NCBI RefSeq assembly: GCF_964355755.1
Contig: NC_092670.1
Span: 27,328,795-27,392,794, forward strand
DNA: 64,000 nucleotides
From: Antedon mediterranea
Taxonomy: Eukaryota > Animalia > Echinodermata
Direction: 5' to 3'
Part shown: one piece after another, positions 1,824 to 64,000 of the stretch
How the letters are laid out: each line of letters opens with the position of its first letter
How positions within the stretch are numbered: the first letter of the stretch is position 1
Notes under the pieces: model-generated
Databases searched by the model: none
What the model was told of the DNA's origin: nothing
The model's input: only the letters and a program-made list of their open reading frames with translations
Translations under genes and position numbers: made by a program

Positions 1824-4530
1824 TAAATTTTCGCCATTTTTCGAAAAAAAATTCTTATGGCCTCTTGCAGGAACATTTTTCGAAAAATGGCTAAATTTCG
1901 AACCTTTTATTTTTTGACATAACTAGTTACTATGGCTCTATAAGATGATGTTAACACAATATATTTGCATAAATGGCAATATTATAATTTATCATAATTA
2001 TAGAATCTTAAAAATTGGACATTTTGGCCCTTTTTCAAAAAAATTCCTATAGTCCCCCAGAAGGAAATTTTCGAAAATTAGCAAAATTTTGACTCTTTTC
2101 TTTTTTAACATAACTATTTACGATGGCTCTATAAGATGATGTTAACACAATATATGTCCATAAATGGCAAAATTATAGCATAATTATTTAATTTTAAAAA
2201 GTGTAAAATTTTTGCCATTTTCGACCCTTTTATATTTTGACATAAGTAGTTGCTATGGCTCTATAAGATGATGTCAGCACAATATATGTGCATAAATGGC
2301 AATATTATAGCATAATTTTTGAATTTTAAAAAGTGGAAATTTTAGTCATTTTTCGAAAAAATTCCTATGGACCCCCCAGGGAAATTTTTCGCAAAAATGG
2401 CCAAATTTTAACCCTTTTATTTTTTGACATAACTAGTAAATATGGCTCTATAAGATGATGTTAGCACAATATATTTGCAAAAATGACAATATTATCGCAT
2501 AATTATTGAATTTTAAAAAGTGGGAATTTTGGCCATTTTTCGACCCTTTTATTTTTTTGACATAACTAGCTGCTATGTCTCTATAAGATGATGTAAACAC
2601 AATATATTTGCATAAATTCCAATATTATAGCATAATTATTGAATTTTAAAAAGTGGAAATTTTGGCCATTTTTCGAAAAAATTCCTATGGTCCCCAGCAG
2701 GGCAATTTTCAAAAAATGTCCAAATTTTGATCCTTTTATTTTTTGACATAACTAGTTACTATAGCTCTATAAGATGATGTTAGCACAATATAGTTATTTG
2801 CATAAATGGCAATATTATAGCATAATTTATGAATTTTAAACAATGGAAATTTTGACCATTTTTCGAAAAACAATCTTATGGTTCCCTGCAGGGAAATTTT
2901 CGCAAAAATGGCCAAATTTCGACCCTTTTATTTCTTGACATAACTAGTTACTATGGCTCTATAAGATGATGTTAAAACAATATATGCGCATAAATGGCAA
3001 TATTATAGCCTAACTATAGAATTTTGAAAATTGGAAATTTTTGCCATTTTTCGAAAAAATTCCTATGGTCCCCCGCAGGGAAATTTTCGCAAAAATGGCC
3101 AAACTTCAAACCTTTTATTAGTCGCGTGGACGCGACTCTACAGTTCCCTATGTCGGTCGGTCTGTCGGTCTGTCTGTCGGTCCGGTATCACTTTGCGTTT
3201 TATCGCTTTTCTGTACTTTTGAACTGTTTTGATGTACAGAAAAGTTTTAAAGTACATTACTTTTTGAAAGTTCAATTATTTCTGAGAGCACGCAACTTAT
3301 TGTTGTTGGCCTTGTTTTTTGACATAACGAGTTACTATGGCTGTATAAGATGATGTTAACACAATATATGTGCATAAATGGCAATATTATAGCCTAATTA
3401 TAGAAATTAAAAAGGTGGACATTTTGGTCGTTTTCGAAAAAAATCGTATGGTCCCCCGCCGGGAAATTGTCGCAAAAATGTCGAAATTTCAAACCTTTTA
3501 TTTTTTGACATAACTATTTACCTTGGCTCTATAAGTTGATGTTTACACAACATATGTGCATAAATGGCAATATTATAGTCTAATTATTGAATTTTAAAAG
3601 GTGGAAATTTTGGTCATTTTGCGAAAAAATTCCTGTGGTCCCCGCAGGAAAATTTAGGAAAAAAAGCCAAATTTCGACCCTTTTATTTTTTGACATAACT
3701 AGTTACTCTGGCTGTATAAGGTGATGTTAGCACAATATATTTGCATAAATGGCAATATTATTGCATAATTTTCGAATTTTAAAAAGTGTAAATTTTCGCC
3801 ATTTTTCGAAAAAAAAATCTTATGGTCCCCCTCTGGGAAATTTTATAAAAATGGCCAAATTTAGACCTTTTTATTTTTCGACATAACTAGTTATTATGGC
3901 TCTATAAGATGATGTTAGCACAATGTGCATAAATGGCAATATTATAGCATAATTTCTGAATTTTAAAAAGTGGAAATTTTGGCCATTTTTCGGAAAAAAT
4001 TTTCGATAAATTGTTAAATTTCGATCCTTTTATTTTTTGACATAACTAGTTACGATGGCTCTATAAGAAGATGATGCTAACACAATATATTTGCATAAAT
4101 GCCAATAAAATAATAGCATAATTATTGAATTTTAAAAAGTGGAAATTTTGGCCAGTTTTCCGCAGGGAAATTTTCGCAAAAATTGCCAAATTTCAAACCT
4201 TTTATTTTTTGACATAACTATTTACTATTGCTTTTTAAGATAACTAGTTACTATGGCTCTATAAGATGATGTTAGCACAATATATGTGCATAGATAGCAA
4301 TATTATAGCATAATTTTTGAATTTAAAAAAGTGGGAATTTTAGTCATTTTTCGAAAAAAATTCCTATGGTCCCCACCCCTCCCCAATATAAAAAGGGCAA
4401 TATTATAGCATAATTATTGAATTTTCGAATTTTAAAAAGTGTAAATTTTCGCCATTTTTCGAAAAAAAAATCTTATGGTTCCCCTCCGGGAAATTTACGA
4501 AAAATGGCCAAATTTAGACGCTTTTATTTT
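1824..4530 (+). repeat. Satellite A, right arm; long (~186-192 bp) and short (~132 bp) monomers
   Basis: Anchor taagatg recurs at 1941, 2132, 2264, 2451, 2584, 2770, 2962 (spacings 191, 132, 187, 133, 186, 192). Long units contain an internal inverted repeat tttggccatttttcgaaaa...ttttcgcaaaaatggccaaa. Confidence 0.92.
3120..3316 (+). mobile_element. Non-autonomous Helentron-associated element (HINE/DINE-1-like), ~195 bp
   Basis: Interrupts a SatA T-run (ccttttatt|...|ttttttgacata) with no TSD. 5' palindrome agtcgcgt-gg-acgcgact (3120-3137), (gtcg/gtct)n microsatellite at 3151-3184, 3' subterminal repeat cacgcaact (3289-3297) inverted to the 5' end, and terminus ggccttgtt. This matches HINE/DINE-1 architecture. 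Confidence 0.8.
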
Positions 4531-5059
4531 AATAGTCTATTTATATGAAATGAATGATCAATCAATGAAAAATAATGCCATGCAACTTTGCTTCTGATTT
4601 TAAAAAAGGTCCACTTGTTTAGGCCTGACATTTACAACACTCAAAATATCTCACTTTCAAAAACAATATTTATTTTCCATTAAAAAAAAAAAAGAAAAAA
4701 ATATTCGTAGAGGTTCGAACCCACTACTGCGAGAACTCAAACCTGAGCACTACCGGTTACACCACAAACCAGTAGATGACAGAAGAGCTGATAACAGTCT
4801 ATTTATATGAAATGAATGATCAATCAATGAAAAATAATGCCATGCAACTTTTTTTCTGATTGAAAAAAATGTCCACTTGTTTAGGCCTGACATTTACAAC
4901 CCTCAAAATATCTCACTTTCAAAAACAATATTTATTTTCAAATAAAAAAAAAATATCCTTACAGGTTTGAACCCACTACTGGGAGCACTCAAAACTGAGC
5001 ATTACCCGTTATGCCATAATGTAGTACACGACAGAACAGTTTATAATAGTCTATTTATA

Positions 5060-6539
5060 AGTGTATTACGTAATTCATCATTACGTCATAAATATCATAT
5101 TAACCTTTTTAAAACCAAAATGGCCAGTTAGCTCAGACGACTGAGCGTCGTGTTGACAACACGTATGTCGTGGGTTCGATTCCCACGCTGGTCGGTGGAA
5201 TAGAGTTAAAGGTATGCGACCAACTGTGTTTGGGGTTCACAGAATTTACGTCCCCCTTTCCACCACACATCTTGAGAAGGCACTAGCAATGCATCTGGTG
5301 ATGATGTGGTGGAAACGACCACAAGGCCGTGGCAGGGCCTTAGTGCTGAGGCAGGGAGAGCACATTTTTAAAATTTTTTTGGGGCTTTCGCTACATGTAT
5401 TTGATCTCGTAAATTTTATGTTTAGCGCCCTCAATTTAATGTAAAAAGAAATTAATTTATCTTCGTTACGTGTTTAGAAGAGAATGTATGTCTCACCGTA
5501 GTTTGGTATGCCGTTTGTTATTATGCAAATGAGTTTTTGCAGGTGTAGTGGGAAAGATGGTATTGTTAGTAATTCGCGGTCAACACGCCACACTGTTGAA
5601 TTTTGATTTTGTTAATCAATGTTGCTACATTGGTAGTGAAATGTCCGATTCATGCAAGATATTGTATTGTAATATGTTATGAATAAACATTTATGGATGG
5701 TAATTGGTGTGTATGGCCGCACCGTCCCAGAATAAACATGTTTTAACAGATAATTTGTCTCCGATGATTTTGTATGGGGTTAATGGAGAGTGAAATAGAT
5801 CAAATATAGAACATTTGCAAAGATGCCGATTTCCAGACTAATTTCGAAACTTAGACTAATTCCGCCGCCGGGCTGGGCCTTAGGCATATACGAAGTCGAG
5901 TTTTTAAAGTAGAAAACTCTACCTAAACTTTTGAATTCGCATCTGGATAGTTGAATTTTTAACAAATATCATAAATATCATAGGTGATTATGTATGGTAA
6001 TAAGTATAAGTATAAGTGCAATTCTGGGCTCTATTTTCATTATTAGCTCTGCCCCAAACACGGTGGGCTAGTAGGCCTACTGGAGACCTAATATTTAATT
6101 TCATATTTCAATGAATAGGTGCACTTTCCGGGGACAAGCTCTATTGTCCTTGTTAGTCTTATATATTTTGTTTCATATAATTTCAAATCATGTAAAGTAC
6201 CATTTTCAGGCGGGAGTCTGTGCAACTCTATTTTTTTATTTTAAACAGTTTGGTATGCCGTCGTGGTTGTTATGCAAATGAGCTTGTGCACGTGTATTAT
6301 GGGGAAGATAATATGTTAATCATTCGCGGTCAACACGCCACACTGTTAAATTTTGATGCTGTTAATATTTACATTAGAATATTGTTCAAATAATGTAAAT
6401 AAAATATTTTCCGGCCGGGAACCCAGCAGCTCTCGAAAAGAACTTCAGGTGGAAAAGAAGCTCACCCATGAGTACTGAATATGAAGGAGCACATTGGCTT
6501 CTTTTGGAGGCTTTATGGCAGTCTTTTTATATGTATTTC
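5060..6539 (+). repeat. ~1.48-kb cassette, copy 1 (tRNA-like head, structured tail, two octamer-containing sub-repeats)
   Basis: Non-satellite sequence nearly identical to 16253-17738, 37368-38852 and 56456-57940; always joined to SatB at the same points. Confidence 0.92.
5122..5194 (+). tRNA. tRNA-like cloverleaf, anticodon GAC on a tRNA-Ile(AAT)-like body; probable pseudogene or SINE head
   Basis: GGCCAGT/GCTGGTC acceptor stem, GCTC/GAGC D stem, CGTG/CACG anticodon stem with loop TTGACAA, GTGGG/CCCAC T stem with TTCGATT loop. The D-loop GG is mutated to GA in this copy, and there is no T-run directly downstream. Confidence 0.7.
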
Positions 6540-9107
6540 ATTTCAAAAACAATATTTATTTTCAAATAAAAAAAAAGAAAAAAAAATATTCATAGAGGTT
6601 TGAACCCACTACTGAGAGAACTCAAACCTGAGCATTACCGGTTACGCCACAAGCCAGTAGATGAGTGAAGAGCTGATAATAGTCTATTTATATGAAATGA
6701 ATGATCCATCAATGTAAAATGATGTTATGCAACTTTGTTTCTGATTTAAAAAAAAGGTCCACATGGTTAGGCTTGACATTAAAAACCATAAAAATATCTC
6801 ACTTTCAAAAACAATATCTATTTTCAATTAAAAAAAAATCCCTAGAGGTTCGACCCACTACTTGCAACTGAACTGAAATGAATGATCCATCAATGTAAAA
6901 TGATGTTATGCAACTTTGTTTCTGATTTAAAAAAAAGGTCCACTTGGTTAGGCTTGACATTAAAAACCATAAAAATATCTCACTTTCAAAAACAATATTT
7001 ATTTTCAAATAAAAAAAAAATGAAAAAAAATATCCCTAGAAGTTCGAACCCACTATTGAAATCACTCAAACCTGAGCATTACCCGTTACGCCGCAAACCA
7101 GTATATGACTGAAGAGCTGATAATAGTCTATTTATATGAAATGGATGATCAATCAATGAAAAATAATGCCATGCAACTTTGTTTCTGATTTTAAAAAAGG
7201 TTCACTTGTTTAGGCCTGACAGTTGCAACCCTCAAAATATCTCACTTTCAAAAACAATATTTATTTTCAATTAAAAAAAAAAGAAAAAAAATACCCGTAT
7301 AGGTTCGAACCACTACTGAGAGCACTCAAAAACCTGAGCATTACCCGTTACGCCACAAACCAGTAGATGTCTGAGGAGCTGATAATAGTCTATATATATG
7401 AAATGAATGATCAATCAATGAAAAATAATGCCATGCAACTTTGTTTCTGATTTAAAAAAAGGTCCACTTGGTTAGGCTTGACATTAAAAACCATAAAAAT
7501 ATCTCACTTTCAAAAACAATATTTATTTTCAAATAAAAAAAAAATGAAAAAAAATATCCCTAGAAGTTCGAACCCACTATTGAAATCACTCAAACCTGAG
7601 CATTACCCGTTACGCCGCAAACCAGTATATGACTAAAGAGCTGATAATAGTCTATTTATATGAAATAGATGATCAATCAATGAAAAATAATGCCATGCAA
7701 CTTTGTTTCTGATTTTAAAAAAGGTTCACTTGTTTATGCCTACCAGTTGCAACCCTCAAAATATCTCACTTTCAAAAACAATATTTATTTTCAATTAAAG
7801 AAAAAAGAAAAAAAATACCCGTATAGGTTCGAACCCACTACTGAGAGCACTCAAACCTGAGCATTACCCGTTACGCCACAAACCAGTAGATGTCTGAGGA
7901 GCTGATAATAGTCTATATATATGAAATGAATGATCAATCAATGAAAAATAATGCCATGCAACTTTGTTTCTGATTTTAAAAAAGGTCCACTTGTTTAGGC
8001 CTGACATTTACAACCCTCAATATATCTCACTTTAAAAAACCATATTTATTTTCAATTTAAAAAAAAAAAGAAAAAAAATATCCCTAGAGGTTCGACCCAC
8101 TCCTCAGAGCACTCAAACCTGAGAATTACCCGTTACGCCACAAACCAGTAGATGACTGAAGAGCTGATAATAGTCTATTTATATAAAATGAATGATCAAT
8201 CAATGAAAAATAATGCCATGCAACTTTGTTTCTGATTTAAAAAAATTTCCACTTATTTAGGCCTGACATTTACAACCCTCAAAATATCTCACTTTTAAAA
8301 AACCATATTTATTTTCAATTTAAAAAAAAAGAAAAACAAATATCCCTAGAGGTTCGACCCACTACTCAGAGCACTCAAACCTGAGCATTACCCGTTACGC
8401 CACAAACCAGTAGATGAATGAAGAGCTGATAATAGTCTATTTATATGAAATGAATGATCAATCAATGAAAAATAATGCCATGCAACTTTGTTTCTGATTT
8501 TTAAAAAGATCCATTTGTTTAGGCCTGACATTTACAACCCTCAAAATATCTCACTTTCAAAAAAAAATATTTATTTTCAATTAAAAAAGAAAAAAGAAAC
8601 AAAATATCCGTAGAGTTTCGAACCCACTAGTGAGAGCACTCAAACTTGAGCATTACCCGTTACGCCATAAACCAGTAGATGACTGAAGAGCTGATAATAC
8701 TCTATTCATATGAAATAAATAATAAATCAATGAAAAATAATGCCATGCAACTTTGTTTCTGATTTAAAAAAAAGTCCACTTGTTTAGGCCTGATATTTAC
8801 AACCCTCAAAATATCTCACTTTCAAAAAAAATATTTATTTTCAATAAAAAAAAAAAGAAAAGAAATATCCCTGAGAAATGATCCATCAATGTAAAATGAT
8901 GTTATGCAACTTTGTTTCTGATTTAAAAAAAGGTCCACTTGGTTAGGCTTAACATTTAAAACCATAAAAATATCTCACTTTCAAAAAAAATATTCCTAGA
9001 GGTTTGAACCCACTACTGAGAGAACTCAAACCTGAGCATTACCGGTTACGCCACAAACCAGTAGATGAGTGAAGAGCTGATAATAGTCTATTTATATGAA
9101 ATGCTGA

Positions 9108-10718
9108 ATAATAACTATCAACGTCGACGAGTCATGTAATAGTAGTTTCGCTGAATTTGAGCAAACATCAGAAGATACGGTATGCAAAGTCATCGCTGAA
9201 AGCGCATCTAAGTCCAGTAGAATTGACCCAATTCCAACACGGTTACTAAAAAACTGCATTGACGCTCTACTACCGCATATCACTAAAATCGTCAACATGT
9301 CGCTGTCATCAGGTACTGTACCATCTGCATTTAAATTGTCCCTCGTTATGCCACTGTTGAAAAAGCAAAATCTCGACTCCAACGTCCTACAAAATTATAG
9401 ACCAATAGCAAATCTTCCCTTCCTTTTCAAAGTCTTGGAAAGAATTGCAACTGCTCAGATAAAAGCATATATGGATGAACATTTCCTATTTTCAAAAGTC
9501 CAATCAGCCTACCGCCGCTTCCACTCAACTGAAACCGCTTTATTACGTATTACAAACGATCTACTACTTGCTTTAGACAAAGGTAATGAAGCGGTACTTA
9601 TTCTACTCGACTACTCCGCCGCATTTGACACTATCAATCATGATTTATTATTTCAACGTCTTCAGAAAAGATACGACATAAGCGGAACCGCATTGAAATG
9701 GTTTATTTCATATTTTGAGAATCGTATACAAGCAATCATTGTGGGTGATTCGATGTCTGATGAGTTCGCTCTACCCTGGGGTGTACCGCGGGGATCCGTA
9801 AAAGGTCCACTTGATTTCATCTTATACACTGGACCACTCAGCAAAATCATTGATTTCCACCCGGAAGTTCGTCATATGATCTATGCAGATGACAATCAAC
9901 TATATTTAATCATGAAACCTACACATCACTCTGAATCTGTTAACAGCCTTGAATCATGCATTGCAGATGTTCGCTCATGGGCCATTCAAAATAAACTCAT
10001 GCTCAACGACTCCAAGACTGAAATGATCCATTTTCATTCAAAGTTCCGTTAGGCATCATCCTTTCCTTTGGTCCATATCGGAGATACTAGTGTCTCTACC
10101 TCCAGCTCAGCCAGAAATCGAGGCGTCCAACTAGACAACAGCCTCGGTTTAAAAGAACACATTCGTAATGTTTGCCGTGGTGCTTCCTTTGGAATTTACC
10201 ATATCGGCCAGATTCGTAAGTACCTTGACAAAACATCAACTGAACGTCTTGTTCATGCTTTTGTTTCATCTCGTCTGGACTGTAATAACTCGCTTCTGTA
10301 CGGCCTACCAACTTCTTATCTGTCTCCTCTTCAACGAATCCAAAATTCCGCCGCAAGACTTATCACTGGCACTAAACGACATGAACATATTTCTCCCGTT
10401 TTACGTGACTTACACTGGTTGCCTGTTGATCAGCGCATTCGTTTTAAAATCCTGTTGCTGACATATAAGGCCATCAACGGATGTGCTCCAGCCTATATAT
10501 GTGACATCATTACTCCGTCAACCAACTCTTCGCTTCGTTCATCCAGCAGACTTCTTCTAAAACATGAACCCCGTTCCAGAACTCGGTTTTACGGTGATCG
10601 TGCTTTCGCTGTCGCAGCCCCAAAACTCTGGAACACTCTACCCCTCGAAATACGCTCATTAAAATCTGTTATCACATTTAAAACTAAACTCAAAACTCAT
10701 CTCTTCAGAGAAGCATAA
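9108..10718 (+). pseudogene. Reverse transcriptase ORF2 fragment, interrupted by one in-frame TAG at 10050-10052
   Basis: ORFs 9297-10052 and 10068-10718 are in the same frame. The endonuclease domain is missing and the usual GVPQGSVLGP motif reads GVPRGSVKGP. Confidence 0.88.
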
Positions 10719-10810
10719 TCGCACGCTACTACTTGCACAGATCTTGGATAACACAGCGCTTTGAAACCTTTGTCTCTTGCGCTTTATAAATGTTATTTAT
10801 TATTATTATT
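9108..10810 (+). mobile_element. 5'-truncated non-LTR retrotransposon, L2/CR1 group
   Basis: Open frame from 9108 (SASKSSRIDPIPTRLLK..., YRPIANLP, QSAYR, LLDYSAAFDTI, GVPRGS, YADD, SSRLDCNNSLL, LHWLPV, GDRAFAVAAPKLWN). Short 3' UTR with agcgctttga...gcgctttataaat and a (TTA)n tail; flanked by SatB on both sides. Confidence 0.93.
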
Positions 10811-13800
10811 AATGATCCATCAATGTAAAATGATGTTATGCAACTTTGTTTCTGATTTAAAAAAAGGTCCACTTGGTTAGGCTTGACATTTAAAACCATA
10901 AAAATATCTCACTTTCAAAAACAATATTTATTTTCAAATAAAAAAAAAGAAAAAAAATATCCCTAGAAGTTCGAACCCACTATTGAAATCACTCAAACCT
11001 GAGCATTACCCGTTACGCCGCAAACCAGTATATGACTGAAGAGCTGATAATAGTCTATTTATATGAAATGGATGATCATCAATGAAAAATAATGCCATGC
11101 AACTTTGTTTCTGATTTTAAAAAAGGTTCACTTGTTTAGGCCTGACAGTTGCAACCCTCAAAATATCTCAGTTTCAAAAACAATATTTATTTTCAATTAA
11201 AAAAAAATAAAAAAAAAAACCCGTATAGGTTCGAATCCACTACTGAGAGCACTCAAACCTGAGCATTACCCGTTACGCCACAAACCAGTAGATGACTGAG
11301 GAGCTGATAATAGTCTATATATATGAAATGAATGATCAATCAATGAAAAATAATGCCATGCAACTTTGTTTCTGATTTTAGAAAAGGTCCACTTGTTTAG
11401 GCCTGACATTTACAACCCTCAAAATATCTCACTTTCAAAAACCATATTTATTTTCAATTTAAAAAAAAAAAAAAAAAATATCCCTAGAGGTTCGACCCAC
11501 TACTCAGAGCACTCAAACCTGAGCATTACCCGTTACGCCGCAAACCAGTATATGACTGAAGAGCTGATAATAGTCTATTTATATGAAATGGATGATCAAT
11601 CAATGAAAAATAATGCCATGCAACTTTGTTTCTGATTTTAAAAAAGGTTCACTTGTTTAGGCCTGACAGTTTCAACCCTCAAAATATCTCACTTTTAAAA
11701 AACCATATTTATTTTCAATTTAAAAAAAAAAAGAAAACAAATATCCCTAGAGGTTCGACCCACTACTCAGAGCACTCAAACCTGAGCATTACCCGTTACG
11801 CCGCAAACCAGTATATGACTGAAGAGCTGATAATAGTCTATTTATAAGAAATGGATGATCAATCAATGAAAAATAATGCCATGCAACTTTGTTTCTGATT
11901 TTAAAAAAGGTCCATTTGTTTAGGCCTGACATTTACAACCCTCAAAATATCTCACTTTCAAAAACCATATTTATTTTCAATTTAAAAAAAAAAGAAAAAA
12001 AAATATCCCTAGAGGTTCGACCCACTACTCAGAGCACTCAAACCTGAGCATTACCCGTTACGCCACAAACCAGTAGATGACTGAAGACCTGATAATAGTC
12101 TATTTATATGAAATAAATGATCAATCAATGGAAAATAATGCCATGCAACTTTGTTTCTGATTTTAAAAAAGATCCATTTGTTTAGGCCTGACATTCACAA
12201 CCCTAAAAAATATCTCATTTTCAAAAAAATATTTATTTTAAATAAGAAAAAAAAAAGCAATATCCCTAGAGGTTGGAAGCCGCTACTGAGAGCACTACTG
12301 GTTACCCGGCAAACCAGTAGATGACTGAAGAGCTGATAACAGTCTATTTATATGAAATGAATGATCAATCAATGAAAAATAATGCCATGCAACTTTGTTT
12401 CTGAATGAAAAAAATGTCCACTTGTTTATGCCTGACATTTACAACACCCAAAATATCTCACTTTCAAAAACAATATTTATTTTCAATTAAAAAAAAAGAA
12501 AGAAAAAAATTATTCGTAGAGGTTCGAACCCACTACTGCGAAAACTCAAACCTGAGGACTACCGGTTACACCACAAACCAGTAGATGAGTGAAGAGCTGA
12601 TAATAGTCTATTTATATGAAATGAATGATCCATCAATGTAAAATGATGTTATGCAACTTTGTTTCTGATTTAAAAAAAGGTCCACTTGGTTAGGCTTGAC
12701 ATTTAAAACCATAAAAATATCTCACTTTCAAAAACAATATTTATTTTGAAATAAAAAAAAAAGAAAAAAAAATATTCATAGAGCTTTGAACCCACTACTG
12801 ATAGAACTCAAACCTGAGCATTACCGGTTACGCCACAAACCAGTAGGTGAATGAAGAGCTGATAATAGTCTATTTATATGAAATGCGGAATAATCCATCA
12901 ATGTAAAATGATGTTATGCAATTTTGTTTCTGATTTAAAAAAGGTCCACTTGGTTAGGCTTGACATTTAAAACCATAAAAATATCTCACTTTCAAAAACA
13001 ATATTTATTTTCAAATAAAAAAAAAAAAAAAAATATCCCTAGAAGTTCGAACCCACTATTGAAATCACTCAAACCTGAGCATTACCCGTTACGCCGCAAA
13101 CCAGTATATGACTGAAGAGCTGATAATAGTCTATTTATATGAAATGGATGATCAATCAATGAAAAATAATGCCATGCAACTTTGTTTCTGATTTTAAAAA
13201 AGGTTCACTTGTTTAGGCCTGACAGTTGCAACCCTCAAAATATCTCACTTTCAAAAACAATATTTATTTTCAATTAAAAAAAAAAGAAAAAAAATACCCG
13301 TATAGGTTCGAATCCACTACTGAGAGCACTCAAACCTGAGCATTACCCGTTAGGCCAAAAACCAGTAGATGACTGAGGAGCTGATAATAGTCTATATATA
13401 TAAAATGAATGATCGATCAATAAAAAATAATGCCATGCAACTTTGTTTCTGATTTTAAAAAAGGTCCACTTGTTTAGGCCTGACATTTACAACCTCAAAA
13501 TATCTCATTTCAAAAACAATATTTATTTTCAATTTAAAAAAAAAAAAAAAAAATATCCCTAGAGGTTCGACCCACTACTCAGAGCACTCAAACCTGAGCA
13601 ATACCCGTTACGCCACAAACCAGTAGATGACTGAAGAGCTGATAATAGTCTATTTATATGAAATGGATGATCAATCAATGAAAAATAATGCCATGCAACT
13701 TTGTTTCTGATTTTAAAAAAGGTCCACTTGTTTAGGCCTGACATTTACAACCCTCAAAATATCTCATTTCAAAAACAATTTTTATTTTCAATTAAAAAAA

Positions 13801-15624
13801 AAAGAAAAAAAATACCCGTATAGGTTCGAACCCACTACTGAGAGCACTCAAACCTGAGCATTACCCGTTACGCCACAAACCAGTAGATGACTGAGGAGCT
13901 GTTAATTGTCTATATATATGAACTAAATGATCAATCAATGAAAGATATTGCCATGCAACTTTGTTTCTGATTTTAAAAAAGGTCCACTTGTTTAGGCCTG
14001 ACATTTACAACCCTCAAAATATCTCACTTTCAAAAACCATATTTATTTTCAATTTAAAAAAAAAAAGAAAAAAAATATCCCTAGAGGATCGACCCACTTC
14101 TCAGAGCACTCAAACCTGAGTATTACCCGTTACGCCACAAACCAGTAGATGACTGAAGAGCTGATAATAGTCTATTTATATGAAATGGATGATCAATCAA
14201 TGAAAAATAATGCCATGCAACTTTGTTTCTGATTTTAAAAAAGGTTCACTAGTTTAGGCCTGACAGTTGCAACCCTCAAAATATCTCACTTTTAAAAACA
14301 ATTTTTATTTTCAATTAAAAAAAAAAGAAAAAAAATACCCGTATAGGTTCGAACCCACTACTGAGAGCACTCAAACCTAAGCATTACCCGTTACCCCACA
14401 AACCAGTAGATGACTGAGGAGCTCATAATTGTCTATATATATGAAATAAATGATCAATCAATGAAAAATAATGCCATGCAACTTTGTTTCTGATTTTAAA
14501 AAAGGTCCACTTGTTTAGGCCTGACATTTACAACCCTCAAAATATCTCACTTTCAAAAACCATATTTATTTTCAATTTAAAAAAAAAAAGAAAAAAAATA
14601 TCCCTAGAGGATCGACCCACTTCTCAGAGCACTCAAACCTGAGTATTACCCGTTACGCCACAAACCAGTAGATGACTGAAGAGCTGATAATAGTCTATTT
14701 ATATGAAATGAATGATCAATCAATGCAAAATAATGCCATGCAACTTTGTTTCTTATTTTAAAAAAGATCCATTTGTTTAGGCCTGTCATTCACAACCCTA
14801 AAAAATATCTCTTTTTCAAAAAAAATATCTATTTTCAATAAGAAAAAAAAAAAGCAGTATCCCTAGAGGTTGGAACCCGCTACTGAGAGCACTCAAACCT
14901 GGATATTACCCGTTACGCCACAAACCAGTAGATAACTGAAGAGCTGATAATAGTCTATTTATATGAAATTAATGATCAATCAATGAAAAATAATGCCATG
15001 CAACTTTGTTTCTGATTTTAAAAAAGGTTCATTTGTTTAGGCCTGACATTTACAACCCTCAAAATATCTCACTTTAAAAAAAAATATTATTTTCAATTAA
15101 AAAAAAGAAAGAAAAGAAATATCCCTAGAGGTTCGAACCCACTACTGCGAGCACTCAAACTTTAGCATTACCAGTTACGCCTCAAACCAATAGATGACTG
15201 AAGAGCTGATAATACTCTATTTATATGAAATGAATAATAAATCAATGAAAAATAATGCCATGCAACTTTGTTTCTGATTTTAAAAAAGGTTCACTTGTTT
15301 AGGCCTGACATTTACAACCCTCAAATTATCGCACTTTCAAAAACAATATTTATTTTCAATTAAAAAAAAAAAGAAACAAAATATCCGTAGAGGTTCGAAC
15401 CCACTAGTGAGAGCACTCAAACTTGAGCATTACCCGTTACGCCACAAACCAGTAGATGAGTGAAGAGCTGATAATACTCTATTTATATGAAATAAATAAT
15501 AAATCAATGAAAAATAATGCCATGCAACTTTGTTTCTGATTTAAAAAAAGATCCACTTGTTTAGGCCTGATATTTACAACCCTCAAAATATCTCACTTTC
15601 AAAAACAATATTTATTTTCAATTT

Positions 15625-15738
15625 AAAAAAAAAATCCCTAGAGGTTCGAACCCACTACTGAGAGCACTCAAACCTGAGCATTATCCGTTACGCCACAAAC
15701 CAGTAGATGACTGAGGAGCTGATAATAGTCTATTTATA
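15625..15738 (-). promoter_or_regulatory. Example SatB monomer: type-2 Pol III promoter layout (TATA, A box, B box, oligo-T terminator)
   Basis: Minus strand: TATAAATA (15738-15731), 29 nt, then GGTTTG-TGGCGTAACGG (A box, 15695-15685) ... GGTTCGAACC (B box, 15652-15643) TCTAGGGA followed by a T-run (15634-15625). D-arm-like stem GCGT/ATGC is present. Confidence 0.7.
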
Positions 15739-53598: not shown

Positions 53599-56455
53599 TT
53601 ACGCCACAAACCAGTAGATAACTGAAGAGCTGATAATAATATATTTATATGAAATTAATGATCAATTAATGAAAAATAATGCCATGCAACTTTGTTTCTG
53701 ATTTTAAAAAAGGTTTATTTGTTTAGGCCTGACATTTACAATCCTCAAAATATCTCACTTTCAAAAACAATATTTATTTTCAATTAAAAAAAAAAAAAAA
53801 CAAAATATCCGTAGAGGTTCGAACCCACTAGTGAGAGCACTCAAACTTGAGTATTACCCGTTACGCCACAAACCAGTAGATGACTGAAGAGCTGATAATA
53901 CTCTATTTATATGAAATAAATAATAAATCAATGAAAAATAATGCCATGCAACTTTGTTTCTGATTTTAAAAAAGGTCCACTTGTTTAGGCCTGATATTTA
54001 CAACCCTCAAAATATCTCACTTTCCCTAGAGGTTCGAACCCACTACTGAAAGCACTCAAACATGAGCATTATCCGTTACGCCACAAACCAGTAGATGACT
54101 GAGGAGCTGATAATAGTCTATTTATATGAAATGAATGATCAATCAATGAAAAATAATGCTATGCAACTTTGTTTCTGATTTTTAAAAAGATCCATTTGTT
54201 TAGGCCTGACATTCACAACCCTAAAAAATATCTCATTTTAAAAAAAAATATTTATTTTCAATAAGAAAAAAAAAAGCAATATCCTTAGAGGTTGGAACCC
54301 GCTACTGAGAGCACTCAAACCTGTGTATTACCCGTTACGCCACAAACCAGTAGATAACTGAAGAGCTGATAATAGTTTATTTATATGAAATTAATGATCA
54401 ATCAATGAAAAATAATGCCATGCAACTTTGTTTCTGATTTTAAAAAAAGGTTCATTTTGTTTAGGCCAGACAAGTGAACAACCCTCAAAATATCTCATTT
54501 CAAAAACCATATTTATTTTCAATTTAAAAAAAAAAGAAAAAAAATATCCCTATAGGTTCGACCCACTACTCAGAGCATTCAAACCTGAGCATTATCCGTT
54601 ACGCCGCAAACCAGTATATGACTGAAGAGCTGATAATAGTCTATTTATATGAAATGGATGATCAATCAATGAAAAATAATGCCATGCAACTTTGTTTCTG
54701 ATTTTAAAAAAGGTTCACTAGTTTAGGCCTGACAGTTGCAATCCTCAAAATATCTCACTTTCAAAAAAAATATTTATTTTCAATTTAAAAAAAAGAAGAA
54801 AAGAAATACACGTATAGGTTCGAACCCACTACTGAGAGCACTCAAACCTGAGCATTACCCGTTACGCCACAAACCAGTAGATGACTGAGGAGCTGATAAT
54901 AGTCTATATATATGAAATAAATGATCAATCAATGAAAAATAATGCCATGCAACTTTGTTTCTGATTTTAAAAAAGGTCCACTTGTTTAGGCCTGACATTT
55001 ACAACCCTCAAAATATCTCACTTTCAAAAACCATATTTATTTTCAATTTAAAAAAAAAAGAAAAAAAATGTCCCTAGAGGATCGACCCACTACTCAGAGC
55101 ACTCAAACCTGAGCATTACCCGTTACGCCACAAACCAGTAGATGACTGAAGAGCTGATAATAGTCTATTTATATGAAATTAATGATCAATCAATGAAAAA
55201 TAATGCCATGCAACTTTGTTTCTGATTTTAAAAAAGGTTCATTTGTTTAGGCCTGACATTTACAACCCTCAAAATATCTCACTTTCAAAAAAAATATTTA
55301 TTTTCAATTAAAAAAAAGAAATATCCCAAGAGGTTCGAACCCACTACTGCGAGCACTCAAACTTGAGCATTACCCGTTACGCCTCAAACCAGTAGATGAC
55401 TGAAGAGCTGATAATACTCTATTTATATGAAATGAATAATAAATCAATGAAAAATAATGCCATGCAACTTTGTTTCTGATTTTAAAAAAGGTTCACTTGT
55501 TTAGGTCTGACATTTACAACCCTCAAAATATCATACTTTCAAAAACAATATTTATTTTCAATTAAAAAAAAAAATCCCTAGAGGTTCGAACCCACTACTG
55601 GGAGCACTCAAACCTGAGCATTCTCCGTTACGCCACAAACCAGTAGATGACTGAGTAGCTGATAAAAGTCTATTTATATGAAATGAATGATCAATCAATG
55701 AAAAATAATGCCATGCAACTTTGTTTCTGATTTTAAAAAAGGTTCACTTGTTTAGGCCTGACATTTACAACCCTCAAATTATCGCACTTTCAAAAACAAT
55801 ATTTATTTTCAATTAAAAAAAAAAAGAAACAAAATATCCGTAGAGGTTCGAACCCACTAGTGAGAGCACTCAAACTTGAGCATTACCCGTTACGCCACAA
55901 ACCAGTAGATGAGTGAAGAGCTGATAATACTCTATTTATATGAAATACATAATAAATCAATGAAAAATAATGTCATGCAACTTTGTTTCTGATTTAAAAA
56001 AAGATCCACTTGTTTAGGCCTGATATTTACAACCCTCAAAATATCTCACTTTCAAAAACAATATTTATTTTCAATTTAAAAAAAAAATCCCTAGAGGTTC
56101 GAACCCACTACTGAGAGCACTCAAACCTGAGCATTATCCGTTACGCCACAAACCAGTAGATGACTGAGGAGCTGATAATAGTCTATTTATATGAAATGAA
56201 TGATCAATCAATGAAAAATAATGCCATGCTACTTTGTTTCTGATTTTAAAAAAGGTCCACTTGTTTAGGCCTGACATTTACAACCCTCAAAATATCTCAC
56301 TTTCAAAAACAATATTTGTTGTCAATTAAAAAAAAAAAGAAAAAAAATATTCGTAGAGGTTCGAACCCACTACTGCGAGAACTCAAACCTGAGCACTCTC
56401 CCTTTTATGCCATAAAGTAGTACACGAAAGAACAGTTTATAATAGTCTATTTATA

Positions 56456-57940
56456 AGTGTATTACGTAATTCATCATTACGTCATAAATATCATATTAAC
56501 CTTTTTAAAACCAAAATGGCCAGTTAGCTCAGACGGCTGAGCGTCGTGTTGACGACAACACGTATGTCGTGGGTTCGATTCTCACGCTGGTCGGTGGAAT
56601 AGAGTTAAAGGTAGGCGACCAACTGTGTTTGGGGTTCACAGAATTTACGTCCCCCTTTCCACCACACATCTTGAGAAGGCACTAGCAATGCATCTGGTGA
56701 TGATGTGGTGGAAACGACCCCAATGCCGTGGCAGGGCCTTAGTGCTGAGGCAGGGAGAGCACATTTTTAAATTTTTTGGGGGGCTTTCGCTACATGTATT
56801 TGATCTCCTAAATTTTATGTTTAGTGCCCTCAATTTAATGTAAAAAGAAATTAATTTATCTTCGTTACGTGTTTAGAAGAGAATGTATGTCTCACCGTAG
56901 TTTGGTATGCCGTTTGTTATTATGCAAATGAGTTTTTGCAGGTGTAGTGGGAAAGATGGTATTGTTAGTAATTCGCGGTCAACACGCCACACTGTTGAAT
57001 TTTGATTTTGTTAATCAATGTTGCTACATTGGTAGCGAAATGTCCGATTCATGCAAGATATTGTATTGTACTATGTTATGAATAAATATTTATGGATGGT
57101 AGTTGGTGTGTATGGCCGCACCGTCCCAGAATAAACATGGTTTAAACAGATAATTTGTCTCCGATGATTTTTGTATGGGGTTAATGGAGAATGGAATAGA
57201 TCAAATATAGAACATTTGCAAAGATGCCGATTTCCAGACTGATTTCGAAACTTAGACTAATTCCGCTGCCGGGCTGGGCCTTAGGCATATACGAAGTCGA
57301 GTTTTTAAAGTAGAAAACTCTACCTAAACTTTTGAATTCGCATCTGGATATTTGAATTTTTAACAAATATAAAAAATATCATAGGTGATTATGTATGGTA
57401 ATAAGTATAAGTATAAGTGCAATTCTGGGCTCTATTTTCATTATTAGCTCTTCCCAAAACATGGTGGGCTAGTAGGCCTACTGGAGACCTAATATTTAAT
57501 TTCATATTTCAATGAATAGGTGCACTTTCCGGGGACATGCTCTATTGTCCTTGTTAGTCTTATATATTTTGTTTCATATAATTTCAAATCATTTAAAGTA
57601 CCATTTTCAGGCGGGAGTCTGTGCAACTCTATTTTTTTATTTTAAACAGTTTGGTATGCCGTCGTGGTTGTTATGCAAATGAGCTTGTAAAGGGGTATTA
57701 TGGGAAGATGATATGTTAATCATTCGCGGTCAACACGCCACACTGTTAAATTTTGATGCTGTTAATATTTACATTAGAATATTGTTCAAATCATGTAAAT
57801 AAAAAATTTTCCGGGCGGGAACCCAGCAGCTCTCGAAAAGAACTCCAGGTGGAAAAGAAGCTCACCCATGAGTACTGAATATGAAGGAGCACATTGGCTT
57901 CTTTTGGAGGCTTTATGGCAGTCTTTTTGCATGTATTTGA
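56456..57940 (+). repeat. ~1.48-kb cassette, copy 4
   Basis: Near-identical to copy 3, including the upstream cactctcccttttatgcc junction. Confidence 0.92.
56518..56593 (+). pseudogene. tRNA-like cloverleaf with duplicated anticodon
   Basis: Identical by eye to 37430-37505. Confidence 0.7.
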
Positions 57941-60900
57941 TTTCAAAAACAATATATATTTTCAATTTAAAAAAAAAAAGAAAAAAAATATTCCTAGAGG
58001 TTCGAACCTACTACTGAGTGAACTCAAACCTGAGCATTACCGGTTACGCCACAAACCAGTAGATGAGTGAAGAGCTGATAATAGTCTATTTATATGAAAT
58101 GAATGATCCATCAATGTAAAATGATGTTATGCAACCTTGTTTCTGATTTAAAAAAAGGTCCTTTTGGTTAGGCTTGACATTTAAAACCATAAAAATATCT
58201 CACTTTTTAAAAACAATATTTATTTTCAAATAAAAAAAAAAAGAAAAAAAAATATCCCTAGAGGTTCGACCCACTATTCAGAGCACTCAAACCTGAGCAT
58301 TACCCGTTAGGCCACAAACCAGTATATGACTGAAGAGCTGATAATAGTCTATTTATATGAAATGAATGATCAATCAATGAAAAATAATGCCATGCAACTT
58401 TGTTTCTGATTTTAAAAAAGATCCATTTGTTTAGACCTGACATTCACAACCCTAAAAAATATCTCATTTAAAAAAAAAAAAATTATTTTCAATAAGAAAT
58501 AAAAAGCAATATCCCTAGAGGTTGGAACCAGCTACTGAGAGCACTCAAACCTGGGTATTACCCGTTACGCCACAAACCAGTACATAACTGAAAAGCTGAT
58601 AATAGTATATTTATATGAAATTAATGATCAATCAATGAAAAATAATGCCATGCAACTTTGTTTCTGATTTTAAAAAAAGGTTCATTTGTTTAGGCCTGAC
58701 ATTTACAACCCTCAAAATATCTCACTTTAAAAAAAATATTTATTTTCAATTAAAAAAAAGAAAGAAAAGAAATATCCCTAGAGGTTCGAACCCACTACTG
58801 CGAGCACTCAAACTTGAGCATTACTAGTTACGCCTCAAACCAGTAGATGACTGAAGAGCTGATAATACTCTATTTATATGAAATGAATAATAAATCAATG
58901 AAAAATAATGCCATGCAACTTTGTTTCTGATTTTAAAAAAGGTTCACTTGTTTAGGCCTGACATTTACAACCCTCAAAATATCTCACTTTCAAAAACAAT
59001 ATTTATTTTCAATTAAAAAAAAAAAAGAAACAAAATATCCGTAGAGGTTCGAACCCACTACTGAGAGAACTCAAACCTGAGCATTACCGGTTACGCCACA
59101 AACCAGTAGGTGAGTGAAGAGCTGATAATAGTCTATTTATATGAAATGCTGAATAATCCATCAATGTAAAATGATGTTATTTAACTTTGTTTCTGATTTA
59201 AAAAAAGGTCCACTTGGTTAGGCTTGACATTTAAAACCATAAAAATATCTCACTTTCAAAAACAATATTTATTTTCAAATAAAAAAAAAAAAAAAAATAT
59301 CCCTAGAAGTTCGAACCCACTATTGAAATCACTCAAACCTGAGCATTACCCGTTACGCCGCAAACCAGTATATGACTGAAGAGGTGATAATAGTCTATTT
59401 ATATGAAATGGATGATCAATCAATGAAAAATAATGGAATGCAACTTTGTTTCTGATTTTAAAAAAGGTTCACTTGTTTAGGCCTGACAAGTGAACAACCC
59501 TCAAAATATCTCATTTCAAAAACCATATTTATTTTCAATTTAAAAGAAAAAGAAAAAAAATATCCCTATAGGTTCGACCCACTACTCAGAGCATTCAAAC
59601 CTGAGCATTATCCGTTACGCCGCAAACCAGTATATGACTGAAGAGCTGATAATAGTCTATTTATATGAAATGGATGATCAATCAATGAAAAATAATGCCA
59701 TGCAACTTTGTTTCTGATTTTAAAAAAGGTTCACTAGTTTAGGCCTGACAGTTGCAACCCTCAAAATATCTCACTTTCAAAAACAATATTTATTTTCAAT
59801 CAAAAAAAAAAGAAAAAAAATACACGTATAGGTTCGAACCCACTACTGAGAGCACTCAAACCTGAGCATTACCCGTTACGCCACAAACCAGTAGATGACT
59901 GAGGAGCTGATAATAGTCTATATATATGAAATAAATGATCAATCAATGAAAAATAATGCCATGCAACTTTGTTTCTGATTTTAAAAAAGGTCCACTTGTT
60001 TAGGCCTGACATTTACAACCCTCAAAATATCTCACTTTCAAAAACCATATTTATTTTCAATTTAAAAAAAAAAGAAAAAAAATGTCCCTAGAGGATCGAC
60101 CCACTACTCAGAGCACTCAAACCTGAGCATTACCCGTTACGCCACAAACCAGTAGATGACTGAAGAGCTGATAATAGTCTATTTATATGAAATGAATTAT
60201 CAATCAATGAAAAATAATGCCATGCAACTTTGTTTCTTATTTTAAAAAGATCCATTTGTTTAGGCCTGACATTCACAACCCTAAAAAATATCTCATTTTC
60301 AAAAAAAATATTTATTTTCAATAAGAAAAAAAAAAGCAATATCCCTAGAGGTTGGAACCCGCTACTGAGACCACTCAAACCTGGGTATTACCCGTTACGC
60401 CACAAACCAGTAGATAACTGAAGATCTGATAATAGTCTATATATATAAAATGAATGATCAATCAATGAAAAATAATGCCATGCAACTTTGTTTCTGATTT
60501 TAAAAAAGGTCCACTTGTTTAGGACTGACATTTACAACCCTCAAAATATCTCACTTTCAAAAATCATATGTATTTTCAATTTAAAAAAAAAAAAAAAAAA
60601 TATCCCTAGAGGTTCGACCCACTACTCAGAGCACTCAAACCTGAGCATTACCCGTTACGCCACAAACCAGTAGATGACTGAAGAGCTGTTAATAGTCTAT
60701 TTATATGAAATGAATTATCAATCAATGAAAAATAATGCCATGCAACTTTGTTTCTGATTTTAAAAAAGATCCATTTGTTTAGGCCTGACAGTTGCAACCC
60801 TCAAAATATCTCATTTTCAAAAACAATATTTATTTTCAATAAGAAAAAAAGAGAAAAAAAATACCCTTATAGGTTCGAACCCACTACTGAGAGCACTCAA

Positions 60901-63900
60901 ACCTGAGCATTACCCGTTACGCCACAAACCAGTAGATGAGTGAAGAGCTGATAATAGTCTATTTATATGAAATGAATGATCCATCAATGTAAAATGATGT
61001 TATGCAACTTTGTTTCTGAATTTAAAAAAGGACCACTTGGTTAGGCTTGACAATTAAAACCATAAAAATATCTCACTTTCAAAAACAATATTTATTTTCA
61101 AATAAAAAAAAAAAGAAAAAAAAATATTCCTAGAGGTTTGAACCCACTACTGAGAGAACGCAAACCTGAGCATTACCGGTTTCGCCACCAACCAGTAGAT
61201 GAGTGAAGGGCTGATAATAGTCTATTTATATGAAATGAATGATCCATCAATGTAAAATTATGTTATGCAACTTTGTTTCTGATTTAAAAAAAGGCCCACT
61301 TGGTTAGGCTTGACATTTAAAACCATAAAAATATCTCACTTTCAAAAACAATATTTATTTTCAAATAAAAAAAAAGAAGAAAAAAAATATCCCTAGAAGT
61401 TCGAACCCACTATTGAAATCACTCAAACCTGAGCATTACCCGTTACGCCGCAAACCAGTATATGACTGAAAAGCTGATAATAGTCTATTTATATGAAATG
61501 GATGATCAATCAATGAAAAATAATGCCATGCAACTTTGTTTCTGATTTTAAAGAAGGTTCACTTGTTTAGGCCTGACAGTTGCAACCCTCAAAATATCTC
61601 ACTTTCAAAAACAATATTTATTTTCAATTAAAAAAAAGAGAAAAAAAATACCCTTATAGGTTCGAACCCACTACTGAGAGCACTCAAACCTGAGCATGAC
61701 CCGTTACGCCACAAACCAGTAGATGAGTGAAGAGCTGATAATAGTCTATTTATATGAAATAGATGATCAATCAATGAAAAATAATGCCATGCAACTTTGT
61801 TTCTGATTTTAAAAAAGGTTCACTTGTTTAGGCCTGACAGTTGCAACCCTCAAAATATCTCACTTTCAAAAACAATATTTATTTTCAATAAGAAAAAAAG
61901 AGAAAAAAAATACCCTTATAGGTTCGAACCCACTACTGAGAGCACTCAACCCTGAGCATTACCCGTTACGCCACAAACCAGTAGATGAGTGAAGAGCTGA
62001 TAATAGTCTATTTATATGAAATGAATGATCCATCAATGTAAAATGATGTTATGCAACTTTGTTTCTGAATTTAAAAAAGGACCACTTGGTTAGGCTTGAC
62101 ATTTAAAACCATAAAAATATCTCACTTTCAAAAACAATATTTATTTTCAAATAAAAAAAAAAAGAAAAAAAAATATTCCTAGAGGTTTGAACCCACTACT
62201 GAGAGAACGCAAACCTGAGCATTACCGGTTACGCCACCAACCAGTAGATGAGTGAAGGGCTGTTAATAGTCTATTTATATGAAATGAATTATCAATCAAT
62301 GAAAAATAATGCCATGCAACTTTGTTTCTGATTTTAAAAAAGATCCATTTGTTTAGGCCTGACATTTACAACCCTCAAAATATCTCACTTTCAAAAAAAA
62401 TATTTATTTTCAATAAGAAAAAAAAGCAATATCCCTAGAGGTTGGAACCCGCTACTGAGACCACTCAAACCTGGGTATTACCCGTTACGCCACAAACCAG
62501 TAGATAACTGAAGAGCTGATAATAGTCTATTTATATGAAATTAATGATCAATCAATGAAAAATAATGCCATGCAACTTTGTTTCTGATTTTAAAAAAGGT
62601 TCATTTGTTTAGGCCTGACATTTACAACCCTCAAAATATCTCACTTTCAATAAGAAAAAAAAGCAATATCTCTAGAGGTTGGAACCCGCTACTGAGACCA
62701 CTCAAACCTGGGTATTACCCGTTACGCCACAAACCAGTAGATAACTGAAGAGCTGATAATAGTCTATTTATATGAAATTAATGATCAATCAATGAAAAAT
62801 AATGCCATGCAACTTTGTTTCTGATTTTAAAAAAGGTTCATTTGTTTAGGCCTGACATTTACAACCCTCAAAATATCTCACTTTCAAAAAAAAAAAAATT
62901 TATTTTCAATTAAAAAAAAAAGAAAAAAAATATCCCTAGAGGTTCGACCCACTACTCAGAGAACTCAAACTTGAGCATTACCCGTTACGCCACAAACCAG
63001 TAGATGACTGAAGAGCTGATAATAGTCTATTTATATGAAATTAATGATCAATGAATGAAAAATAATGTCATGCAACTTTGTTTCTGATTTTAAAAAAGAT
63101 CCATTTGTTTAGGCCTGTCATTCACAACCCTAAAAAATATCTCATTTTCCAAAAAAATAATTTTTTTCAATAAGAAAAAAAAAAAGCAATATCTCTAGAG
63201 GTTGGAACCCGCTACTGAGAGCACTCAAACCTGGGTATTACCCGTTACGCCACGAACCAGTAGATAACTGAAGAGCTGATAATAGTCTATTTATATGAAA
63301 TTAATGATCAATCAATGAAAAATAATGCCATGCAACTTTGTTTCTGATTTTAAAAAAGGTTCATTTTTTTAGGCCTGACATTTACAACCCTAAAAATATC
63401 TCACTTTCAAAAAAAATATTTATTTTCAATTAAAAAAAAGAAAGAAAAGAAAAATCCCAAGAGGTTCGAACCCACTACTGCGAACACTCAAACTTGAGCA
63501 TTACCCATTACGCCTCAAACCAGTAGATGACTGAAGAGCTGATAATAGTCTATTGATATGAAATGAATGATCAATCAATGAAAAATAATGCCAGGCAACT
63601 TTGTTTCTGATTTTAAAAAAGGTTCACTTGTTTAGGCCTGACATTCACAACCCTAAAAAAATCTCATTTTCCCAAAAAATTCTTATTTTCAATAAGAAAA
63701 AAAAAAAGAAATATCCCTAGAGGTTGGAACCCGCTACTGAGAGTACTCAAACCTGGGCATTACCCGTTACACCACAAACCAGTAGATAACTCAAGAGCTG
63801 ATAATAGTCTATTTATATGAAATTAATGATCAATCAATGAAAAATAATGCCATGCAACTTTGTTTCTGATTTTAAAAAAGGTTCATTTGTTTAGGCCTGA

Positions 63901-64000
63901 CATTTACAACCCTCAAAATATCTCACTTTCAAAAAAAATATTTATTTTCAATTAAAAAAAAGAAAGAAAGAAATATCCCTAGAGGTTCGAACCCACTACT

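What the first reader, a model, noticed from the sequence alone, without database searches (positions are those of the whole stretch)
4530..64000. The 260-bp satellite is an array of tRNA-like Pol III transcription units
Seen: on the minus strand each monomer reads TATAAATA-29 nt-GGTTTG TGGCGTAACGG GTAATGCTCAGGTTTGAGTGCTCTCAGTAGTG GGTTCGAACC TCTAGGGATA-T-rich run. Established: TRGCNNARYGG (A box) and GGTTCGANNC (B box) at tRNA-like spacing, an upstream TATA and an oligo-T terminator define a type-2 Pol III gene. A D-arm (GCGT/ATGC) and a partial T-arm can form, but the acceptor and anticodon stems do not pair well, so these are not canonical tRNAs. The 5' half resembles tRNA-Gln or tRNA-Arg (unresolved). 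Inference: a tRNA-derived satellite that kept all four promoter and terminator elements. It may produce a ~70-80-nt ncRNA from ~175 copies here, or act as a dense TFIIIC-binding platform (barrier/insulator or pericentromeric organiser, by analogy with tDNA barriers).
Basis: partly seen in the sequence, partly recalled or inferred. Interest (0 to 1): 0.85.

Follow-up and report, generated by a model that had tools for sequence, protein, structure and literature searches.

The report
Decayed tRNA gene turned satellite
About 176 tandem copies of a 262-base repeat each carry the worn remains of a tRNA gene with its promoter layout, but only about one copy in five keeps all four signals and these are no better conserved than the spacer, so this is likely a drifting tRNA-derived satellite, of a kind known from amphibians, rather than a working gene array.

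Summary
The layout is real. Each 262-bp monomer (176 starts, 162 full copies) carries TATA, A box, B box and a T-run on the minus strand at tRNA spacing; 0 of 20,000 shuffles reproduce it. A tRNA model built from unrelated tRNAs aligns the best copy collinearly (22.8 bits, E about 0.001), so the ancestor was likely a tRNA gene; Rfam itself finds no monomer. The functional reading fails its own test: 32 of 162 full copies keep all four signals, box sites vary as much as matched spacer sites (34 changes versus 42 expected, range 24-65), and subfamilies with broken B boxes spread as well as intact ones. In a second organism the same unit mostly leads into that cassette, and a 12-bp repeat at the TATA box joins the two forms, so the monomer is likely a deletion product of a 1.8-kb unit (direction not settled). 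Expression is untested. Precedents: Rana/polIII, newt PolIII/TAN, Xenopus OAX. New member of a known kind; interest 0.25.

The parts
4531..64000 (-). Array of 262-bp monomers in nine segments (about 4531-5015, 6534-9112, 10810-16202, 17739-19846, 21283-37307, 38853-46015, 47187-50715, 53600-56395, 57941-64000); runs off the window's right end
15378..15487 (-). Example unit with all four signals: TATA about 15480-15487, A box about 15434-15444, B box about 15392-15401, T-run below 15382; one of 39 such patterns
   Evidence: pattern and spacings 35/32/10; model match 15384-15448
30101..30165 (-). Most tRNA-like monomer body (22.8 bits, one 1-nt gap after the D arm)
4704..4768 (-). Second most tRNA-like body (18.4 bits), first monomer of the array
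5016..6533 (.). 1.5-kb cassette, copy 1 (begins with a divergent leader and the TATA box of the adjoining unit)
16203..17738 (.). 1.5-kb cassette, copy 2
37308..38852 (.). 1.5-kb cassette, copy 3
56396..57940 (.). 1.5-kb cassette, copy 4 (99.6% identical to copy 3, 19.1 kb away)
5122..5194 (+). Second tRNA-like gene (anticodon GAC), well-formed cloverleaf, head to head with the satellite unit; followed by about 180 nt with hairpins and a T-run
   Evidence: RF00005 50.1 bits, ARAGORN, fold z -2.9 for 5122-5372
16315..16390 (+). Same gene with a 3-bp duplication in the anticodon loop and a T-stem change; also at 37430-37505 and 56518-56593
   Evidence: 36.7 bits, alignment
9113..10809 (+). 5'-truncated LINE (reverse transcriptase) inserted about 15 bp upstream of a TATA box
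   Evidence: RVT_1 E 2e-23; junctions
19847..21282 (+). Non-coding insertion with TC start, terminal hairpin and CTAG end (Helitron-like; hallmarks recalled)
46016..47190 (+). 3' fragment of a LINE with A-rich tail, joined at the upstream edge of a TATA box
   Evidence: zf-RVT E 1.4e-05, 26.1 bits, below the 27.5 cut-off
50716..53599 (.). Insertion holding a 45-bp minisatellite (52226-53170), left junction in the leader about 8 bp from a TATA box

Best explanation
The repeat is a tandem array of a decayed tRNA gene with its flanking TATA box and T-run, and it is likely amplified by DNA-level unequal exchange without selection on its promoter. Steps: (1) shown: each monomer holds a 65-70-nt body collinear with a short-arm tRNA, with TATA upstream and T-run downstream; (2) inferred: the ancestor was a gene in place rather than an RNA retrocopy, because the sense strand ends in T's, not A's, and has an upstream TATA box; (3) shown: the body also occurs in a 1.8-kb form, head to head with a second tRNA-like gene, and the two forms meet at a 12-bp repeat covering the TATA box; inferred: crossing-over or deletion between the two 12-bp repeats made the 262-bp monomer (about 60%; insertion of the cassette with a 12-bp duplication about 40%); (4) shown: monomers fall into subfamilies arranged in 0.5-2-kb and 19-21-kb higher-order repeats, and subfamilies with damaged boxes expanded like intact ones; (5) inferred: most copies are silent or give non-functional RNA; the 39 intact patterns would be able to bind TFIIIC if accessible, as a by-product.
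For: Geometry beyond chance. tRNA model from 23 phage tRNAs: 56 of the 71 matches at E<=10 lie on minus-strand monomer bodies, best 22.8 bits E 0.0012, second 18.4 bits E 0.016 (E-values rough). No selection seen: 12 key box sites have 34 parsimony changes against 42 for base-matched spacer sites (2.5-97.5%: 24-65; P 0.26); 41 of 162 copies are unchanged at all 12 against 37% expected; A+B+TATA sites versus spacer P 0.74. Subfamily B (21 copies) changes B-box R57 to C, D (15) and L (3) lose T54, C (18) changes A-box T8, F (10) and H (8) change C61. Cloverleaf is lost: mean 7.1 Watson-Crick pairs of 18, two-sided changes in 6 cells; majority body folds no better than shuffles, z -0.5. Nearest-neighbour monomers lie most often 19.1-19.4 kb apart (36 of 162), median divergence 1.25%. 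Organism B: 7 of 8 listed pieces stop at the TATA box and 7 contigs continue there into cassette-like letters; cassette-end letters join the TATA box plus spacer in 3 contigs of B and 2 of A; the whole cassette is covered in runs of A and B.
Against: No expression or chromatin data: a copy can be unconstrained and still transcribed or bound. The test has limited power: the spacer-matched range is wide, gene conversion blurs tree counts, and several box sites (G10, A14, G52, A58) are invariant in 162 copies. TATA is kept in 152 and the T-run in 161 of 162. Selection could act on the array total, not on each copy. One window only; the genome-wide majority of the cassette differs from the window's copies at about 77-94 sites, so this array may be a worn outlier. 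Rfam finds no monomer at E<=10. Direction of origin is not rooted; table 8 hid 398 pieces.
Confidence: 0.72

Rival explanations
1. The array is a maintained Pol III platform: the intact fifth of the copies bind TFIIIC/TFIIIB, make a 75-85-nt RNA or keep the TATA region open, and act as a chromatin barrier or organiser.
For: 39 complete patterns in 60 kb with fixed spacing; TATA and T-run nearly always kept; five of six independent junctions fall within 31 bp around the TATA box (scan P 0.005); amphibian PolIII/TAN is transcribed in vitro (PMC10702118 passages); tRNA genes and orphan Pol III elements are described as insulators or organisers (PMC4233971 passages).
Against: Boxes not more conserved than spacer; damaged subfamilies as large as intact ones; no conserved RNA fold; the junction clustering was seen after the fact, and for the four clear transposon insertions alone P is 0.15.
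Confidence: 0.15
2. The body is the head of a SINE or a retroposed tRNA copy that later expanded in tandem, as in SINE-derived satellites; TATA and T-run are chance features of AT-rich flanks.
For: SINE-derived satellites exist (PMC10702118 passages); an unchecked AI note reports dispersed retro-copies for a similar satellite in another genome (e1-9535991); the neighbouring GAC gene with its 180-nt extension looks SINE-like.
Against: The sense strand ends in a T-run directly after the tRNA body, with no SINE body or A-tail; all four signals occur in 0 of 20,000 shuffles; share of laid contigs running on into unlike sequence is 0 and 0.02 in the two deep runs, which does not point to many dispersed copies.
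Confidence: 0.1
3. The boxes are a coincidence in an ordinary satellite with no tRNA ancestry.
For: No Rfam match at E<=10; relaxed ARAGORN calls are only about twice those on shuffles (54 versus 26 at threshold 80).
Against: Shuffle test; collinear model match with E about 0.001.
Confidence: 0.03

Closest known systems
Rana/polIII of Palearctic green frogs; newt PolIII/TAN; Xenopus OAX/satellite I; Hydromantes Hy/polIII (as summarised in PMC10702118, passages read)
   Same: Tandem repeats of about 200-360 nt with a tRNA-related segment and no matching SINE; Rana/polIII is about 250 nt with 64% identity to tRNA over 64 nt, close to this case.
   Different: Independent origin outside amphibians (likely an echinoderm, from unchecked AI notes); here the relation to a longer two-gene unit is visible; transcription is reported for PolIII/TAN in vitro and untested here.
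SINE-derived satellites (sSat) of squamates (PMC10702118, passages)
   Same: Tandem amplification of DNA that holds Pol III promoter boxes.
   Different: sSat units are parts of a known dispersed SINE; no parent SINE was shown here, and the unit has upstream TATA and downstream T-run.
Tandem tRNA gene arrays such as the human 1q23.3 tDNA repeat (PMC4041453, search listing and start of abstract only)
   Same: Tandem units with tRNA genes, variable copy number, proposed boundary role.
   Different: Those units are 7.3 kb with CTCF binding; here the unit is 262 bp and the tRNA fold is lost.
tRNA (Rfam RF00005)
   Same: A and B boxes, D arm, spacing of a short-arm tRNA.
   Different: No match at gathering score or at E<=10; acceptor, anticodon and T stems broken; one base missing after the D arm.

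Membership tests
Functional tRNA gene (RF00005) | Covariance-model score at gathering threshold | tested here: not met
   No monomer hit; the cassette gene does pass (50.1 and 36.7 bits)
Functional tRNA gene (RF00005) | Four paired stems kept by compensatory change | tested here: not met
   Mean 11.5 of 18 pairs, 7.1 Watson-Crick; 6 two-sided cells
tRNA-derived tandem repeat (Rana/polIII kind) | Head-to-tail array of units of a few hundred bp | tested here: met
tRNA-derived tandem repeat (Rana/polIII kind) | tRNA-related segment with A and B boxes | tested here: met
   (weak score, rough E-values)
tRNA-derived tandem repeat (Rana/polIII kind) | Transcription by Pol III (shown for some members) | not testable with these tools
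   No raw RNA reads available
Type-2 Pol III transcription unit | A box, B box at tRNA spacing, T4+ terminator in the same copy | tested here: met
   Met in 32 of 162 full copies with TATA, 36 of 162 for A+B; not met in the majority
Type-2 Pol III transcription unit | Purifying selection on the boxes | tested here: not met
   limited power
SINE or SINE-derived satellite | Dispersed parent copies with body, tail and target-site duplication | tested here: inconclusive
   No genome held; contigs rarely run on into unlike sequence; no A-tail on the sense strand
Hammerhead satellite / retrozyme | Hammerhead core with stems I-III | tested here: not met
   105 plus-strand core-like words, 0 with stems II>=2, III>=1, I>=4; no Rfam hit
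tDNA barrier/insulator | TFIIIC occupancy and boundary activity | not testable with these tools
   Needs ChIP and reporter data

The most novel reading that the evidence does not exclude
A satellite born by collapse of a head-to-head pair of tRNA-like genes at their TATA box, in which the intact fifth of the copies still recruits TFIIIC/TFIIIB, making the densest known Pol III promoter platform, keeping the TATA region open so that unrelated transposons land there, and giving a 75-85-nt RNA.
Probability: 0.15. Interest if true: 0.65.

Novelty: new member of a known kind. Interest (0 to 1): 0.25.

Why it matters
As an inert relic it adds an invertebrate case to the short list of tRNA-derived satellites and shows a likely birth route (a 1.8-kb two-gene unit and a 262-bp unit joined at a 12-bp repeat), with intact and broken subfamilies side by side. 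That makes a natural test of whether Pol III boxes matter for satellite spread; here they appear not to. If TFIIIC did occupy the intact copies, the array would be a direct test of the tDNA-barrier idea in an animal satellite.

Tried and rejected
No whole genome is held, so dispersed copies, array ends and chromosomal position are open. Expression: no RNA holder listed; run X5 is only guessed to be RNA, is held as contigs, and covers body, spacer and all 30 bins of the cassette, so it says nothing for or against transcription. Runs X14 and X16 (organisms C, D) hold near-identical pieces at very low depth, which carry-over from organism A would also give; not used. The A-rich 104 letters of the monomer were skipped by the read tool. 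Rfam scans at E<=10 of 4500-9100, 7795-7925, 16380-17760 and 55560-55960 gave only chance-level hits besides the cassette gene. Relaxed ARAGORN gives inconsistent isotypes and many calls on shuffles. Hammerhead/retrozyme idea rejected. A 22-base pattern found nothing in metagenome contigs. My pair indexing for the cassette gene was off by one; I rely for that gene, and rather than 42 for the anticodon register. Insertion clustering at the TATA box is not significant for transposons alone. Paper searches; 'crinoid + satellite DNA + tRNA' found 0 papers; one search returned irrelevant papers; no passage on tRNA-array-targeting Tx1 elements was found. The original amphibian papers were not read. 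Earlier-findings look-ups by sequence, near and relatives were empty.

Full report
Observation. The window from 4531 to its end is an array of a 262-bp repeat. Using one monomer as probe I found 176 starts and 162 full copies of 235-285 bp, 152 of them distinct, mean pairwise identity 90%; 14 shorter or interrupted copies were left out of the alignment counts. All lie in one orientation, and eight non-satellite blocks take 13,364 of 59,470 bp. TATA to A box is 35 nt and A to B box 32 nt in 38 of 39 complete patterns. With recalled box consensuses, A+B appears in 4 and all four signals in 0 of 20,000 dinucleotide shuffles. The layout is therefore real.

Is it a tRNA? Rfam and ARAGORN at normal thresholds find no monomer, nor does Rfam at E<=10 on three stretches holding monomers. 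Because those E-values are multiplied by 4,227 families, I built one model from 23 tRNAs of a phage record, independent of the window and not ideal for animal tRNAs. With filters off it gave 71 matches at E<=10 in 64 kb: 56 on minus-strand monomer bodies, 1 other minus-strand match, 14 on the plus strand. The best body scores 22.8 bits (E 0.0012), the next 18.4 (E 0.016), collinear with model positions 4-69 and one base short after the D arm (calibration is rough, and about two thirds of the copies give no match). So tRNA ancestry is likely, but the fold is gone: mean 7.1 Watson-Crick pairs of 18, two T-stem pairs formed in 0 and 7 of 162 copies, 6 cells with two-sided change, folding z -0.5.

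Are the signals kept? No more than the rest. Of 162 copies the A box matches in 100, the B box in 72, both in 36, all four signals in 32. Parsimony changes per site are 2.69 for A, B and TATA sites and 2.62 for the spacer (P 0.74). For 12 key box sites the count is 34 against 42 for base-matched spacer sites (range 24-65), and 25% of copies are unchanged at all 12 against 37% expected. The damage is by subfamily: B (21 copies) alters R57, D and L (18) lose T54, C (18) alters T8, F and H (18) alter C61, next to intact A (23), E (11) and G (9). Broken units spread as well as intact ones. Against over-reading this: the range is wide, gene conversion blurs tree counts, some box sites are invariant, and this is one window.

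The larger unit. Four of the eight interruptions are one 1.5-kb cassette, 96-99.6% alike. It starts at the TATA box of the adjoining unit, whose leader differs from the monomers', and about 60 bp further holds a second tRNA-like gene on the plus strand, head to head with the satellite unit (RF00005 50.1 bits in copy 1, one non-standard pair; 36.7 in the others). Monomer order repeats at 19-21 kb together with the cassette. Public contigs show the family in a second organism. In organism B (run X7) 7 of 8 listed pieces stop at 60184-60188, the TATA box, 7 contigs continue there with letters like the cassette's start, and most depth carries the cassette-type leader (398 pieces not shown). In B (3 contigs) and A (2 contigs) letters like the cassette's end run into the same 12 bases around the TATA box and on into the spacer; the window's four copies have lost about 110 bp there. 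The whole cassette is covered in A and B. Summed depths are no copy numbers, but body against median cassette depth is about 16 in X1 and near 1 in X7 (my arithmetic), and 176 to 4 in the window. So a 1.8-kb unit bounded by a 12-bp direct repeat and the 262-bp monomer are two states of one sequence. Deletion between the repeats gives the monomer; insertion with a 12-bp duplication gives the cassette form. I lean to deletion (about 60%): reading the cassette ends shows no inverted termini or A-tail, and B keeps the cassette-linked form and a more tRNA-like acceptor base. It is not rooted.

Other interruptions are a truncated LINE (RVT_1), a LINE 3' end (zf-RVT below cut-off), a Helitron-like element and a minisatellite-bearing insertion. 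Five of six independent junctions lie within 31 bp around the TATA box (scan P 0.005), but this was seen after the fact and P is 0.15 for the four clear insertions; it is a lead for TFIIIB-type accessibility, not evidence.

Mechanism. Most likely a tRNA gene in its native setting decayed, was cut down to 262 bp, and spread by unequal exchange, with no selection on its boxes (0.72). A maintained TFIIIC platform or small-RNA source remains possible (0.15), since 39 patterns are intact and expression could not be tested. A SINE-head origin is less likely (0.10). A hammerhead reading was tested and rejected.

What is known. PMC10702118 (passages read) lists Rana/polIII (about 250 nt, 64% to tRNA over 64 nt, up to 10% of the genome), newt PolIII/TAN (about 360 nt, transcribed in vitro), Xenopus OAX and Hy/polIII; I did not read the originals. 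PMC4233971 (passages) mentions orphan Pol III elements and tRNA genes as insulators; PMC4041453 (listing and start of abstract) describes a human tDNA repeat as a boundary candidate. Unchecked AI notes call this genome a feather star and report similar relics in other genomes; I did not test either. One search for crinoid, satellite DNA and tRNA found no paper; the library lacks most subscription journals and I read no supplements.

Verdict. Observation partly confirmed; tRNA origin supported; functional reading unsupported on the one test available. New member of a known kind, interest 0.25; 0.65 if the intact copies prove to be an occupied Pol III platform (probability 0.15).

Noticed in passing
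window 5122-5372 (+), and three more copies: Second tRNA-like gene with anticodon GAC, TATA-like word about 33 bp upstream, 180-nt hairpin-rich extension and T-run. In runs of organisms A and B most contigs have a better-paired acceptor, an intact B box and no loop duplication compared with copy 2, so the fold is kept across both. A G34 valine anticodon is unusual in eukaryotes (recalled). SINE head or tRNA-like gene: unresolved.
   Followed up: partly
window 16390-16465 (+), also 5194-5269, 37505-37580, 56593-56668: A second full-length but non-significant tRNA-model match (13.2 bits, E 0.35) directly behind that gene, with a 7-bp acceptor-like stem.
   Followed up: no
window 16696-16812 and 17446-17564: Two copies, 82% alike, of a 118-bp element with an octamer word inside each cassette; no Rfam match.
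   Followed up: partly
window 17600-17735 and 16520-16570: A contig of run X5 joins the cassette's last part to the 3' end of the GAC gene's extension through 30 other letters (table 5c), suggesting two SINE-like elements that share one tail.
   Followed up: no
window 4531, 5058, 9113, 46016, 50716: Five of six independent junctions lie within 31 bp around the TATA box (P 0.005, after the fact; 0.15 for the four clear insertions).
   Followed up: partly
window 1-4530: Two opposed arrays of a 186-bp repeat around a 1.35-kb GA-rich microsatellite (471-1823), like the foldback elements noted elsewhere in this genome (unchecked note e1-10650426); a short unrelated insertion with GGTC/TGTC repeats sits at about 3118-3315.
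   Followed up: no
window 50716-53599: Insertion with layered 36-, 45-, 111-bp repeats; the long frames over the 45-bp array are a by-product of a period divisible by three.
   Followed up: no
window 60093-60150 laid on run X7: Organism B's loose ends show the acceptor-pairing base that only 37 of 162 copies have here, hinting that the form that dominates this array is the more decayed one.
   Followed up: partly
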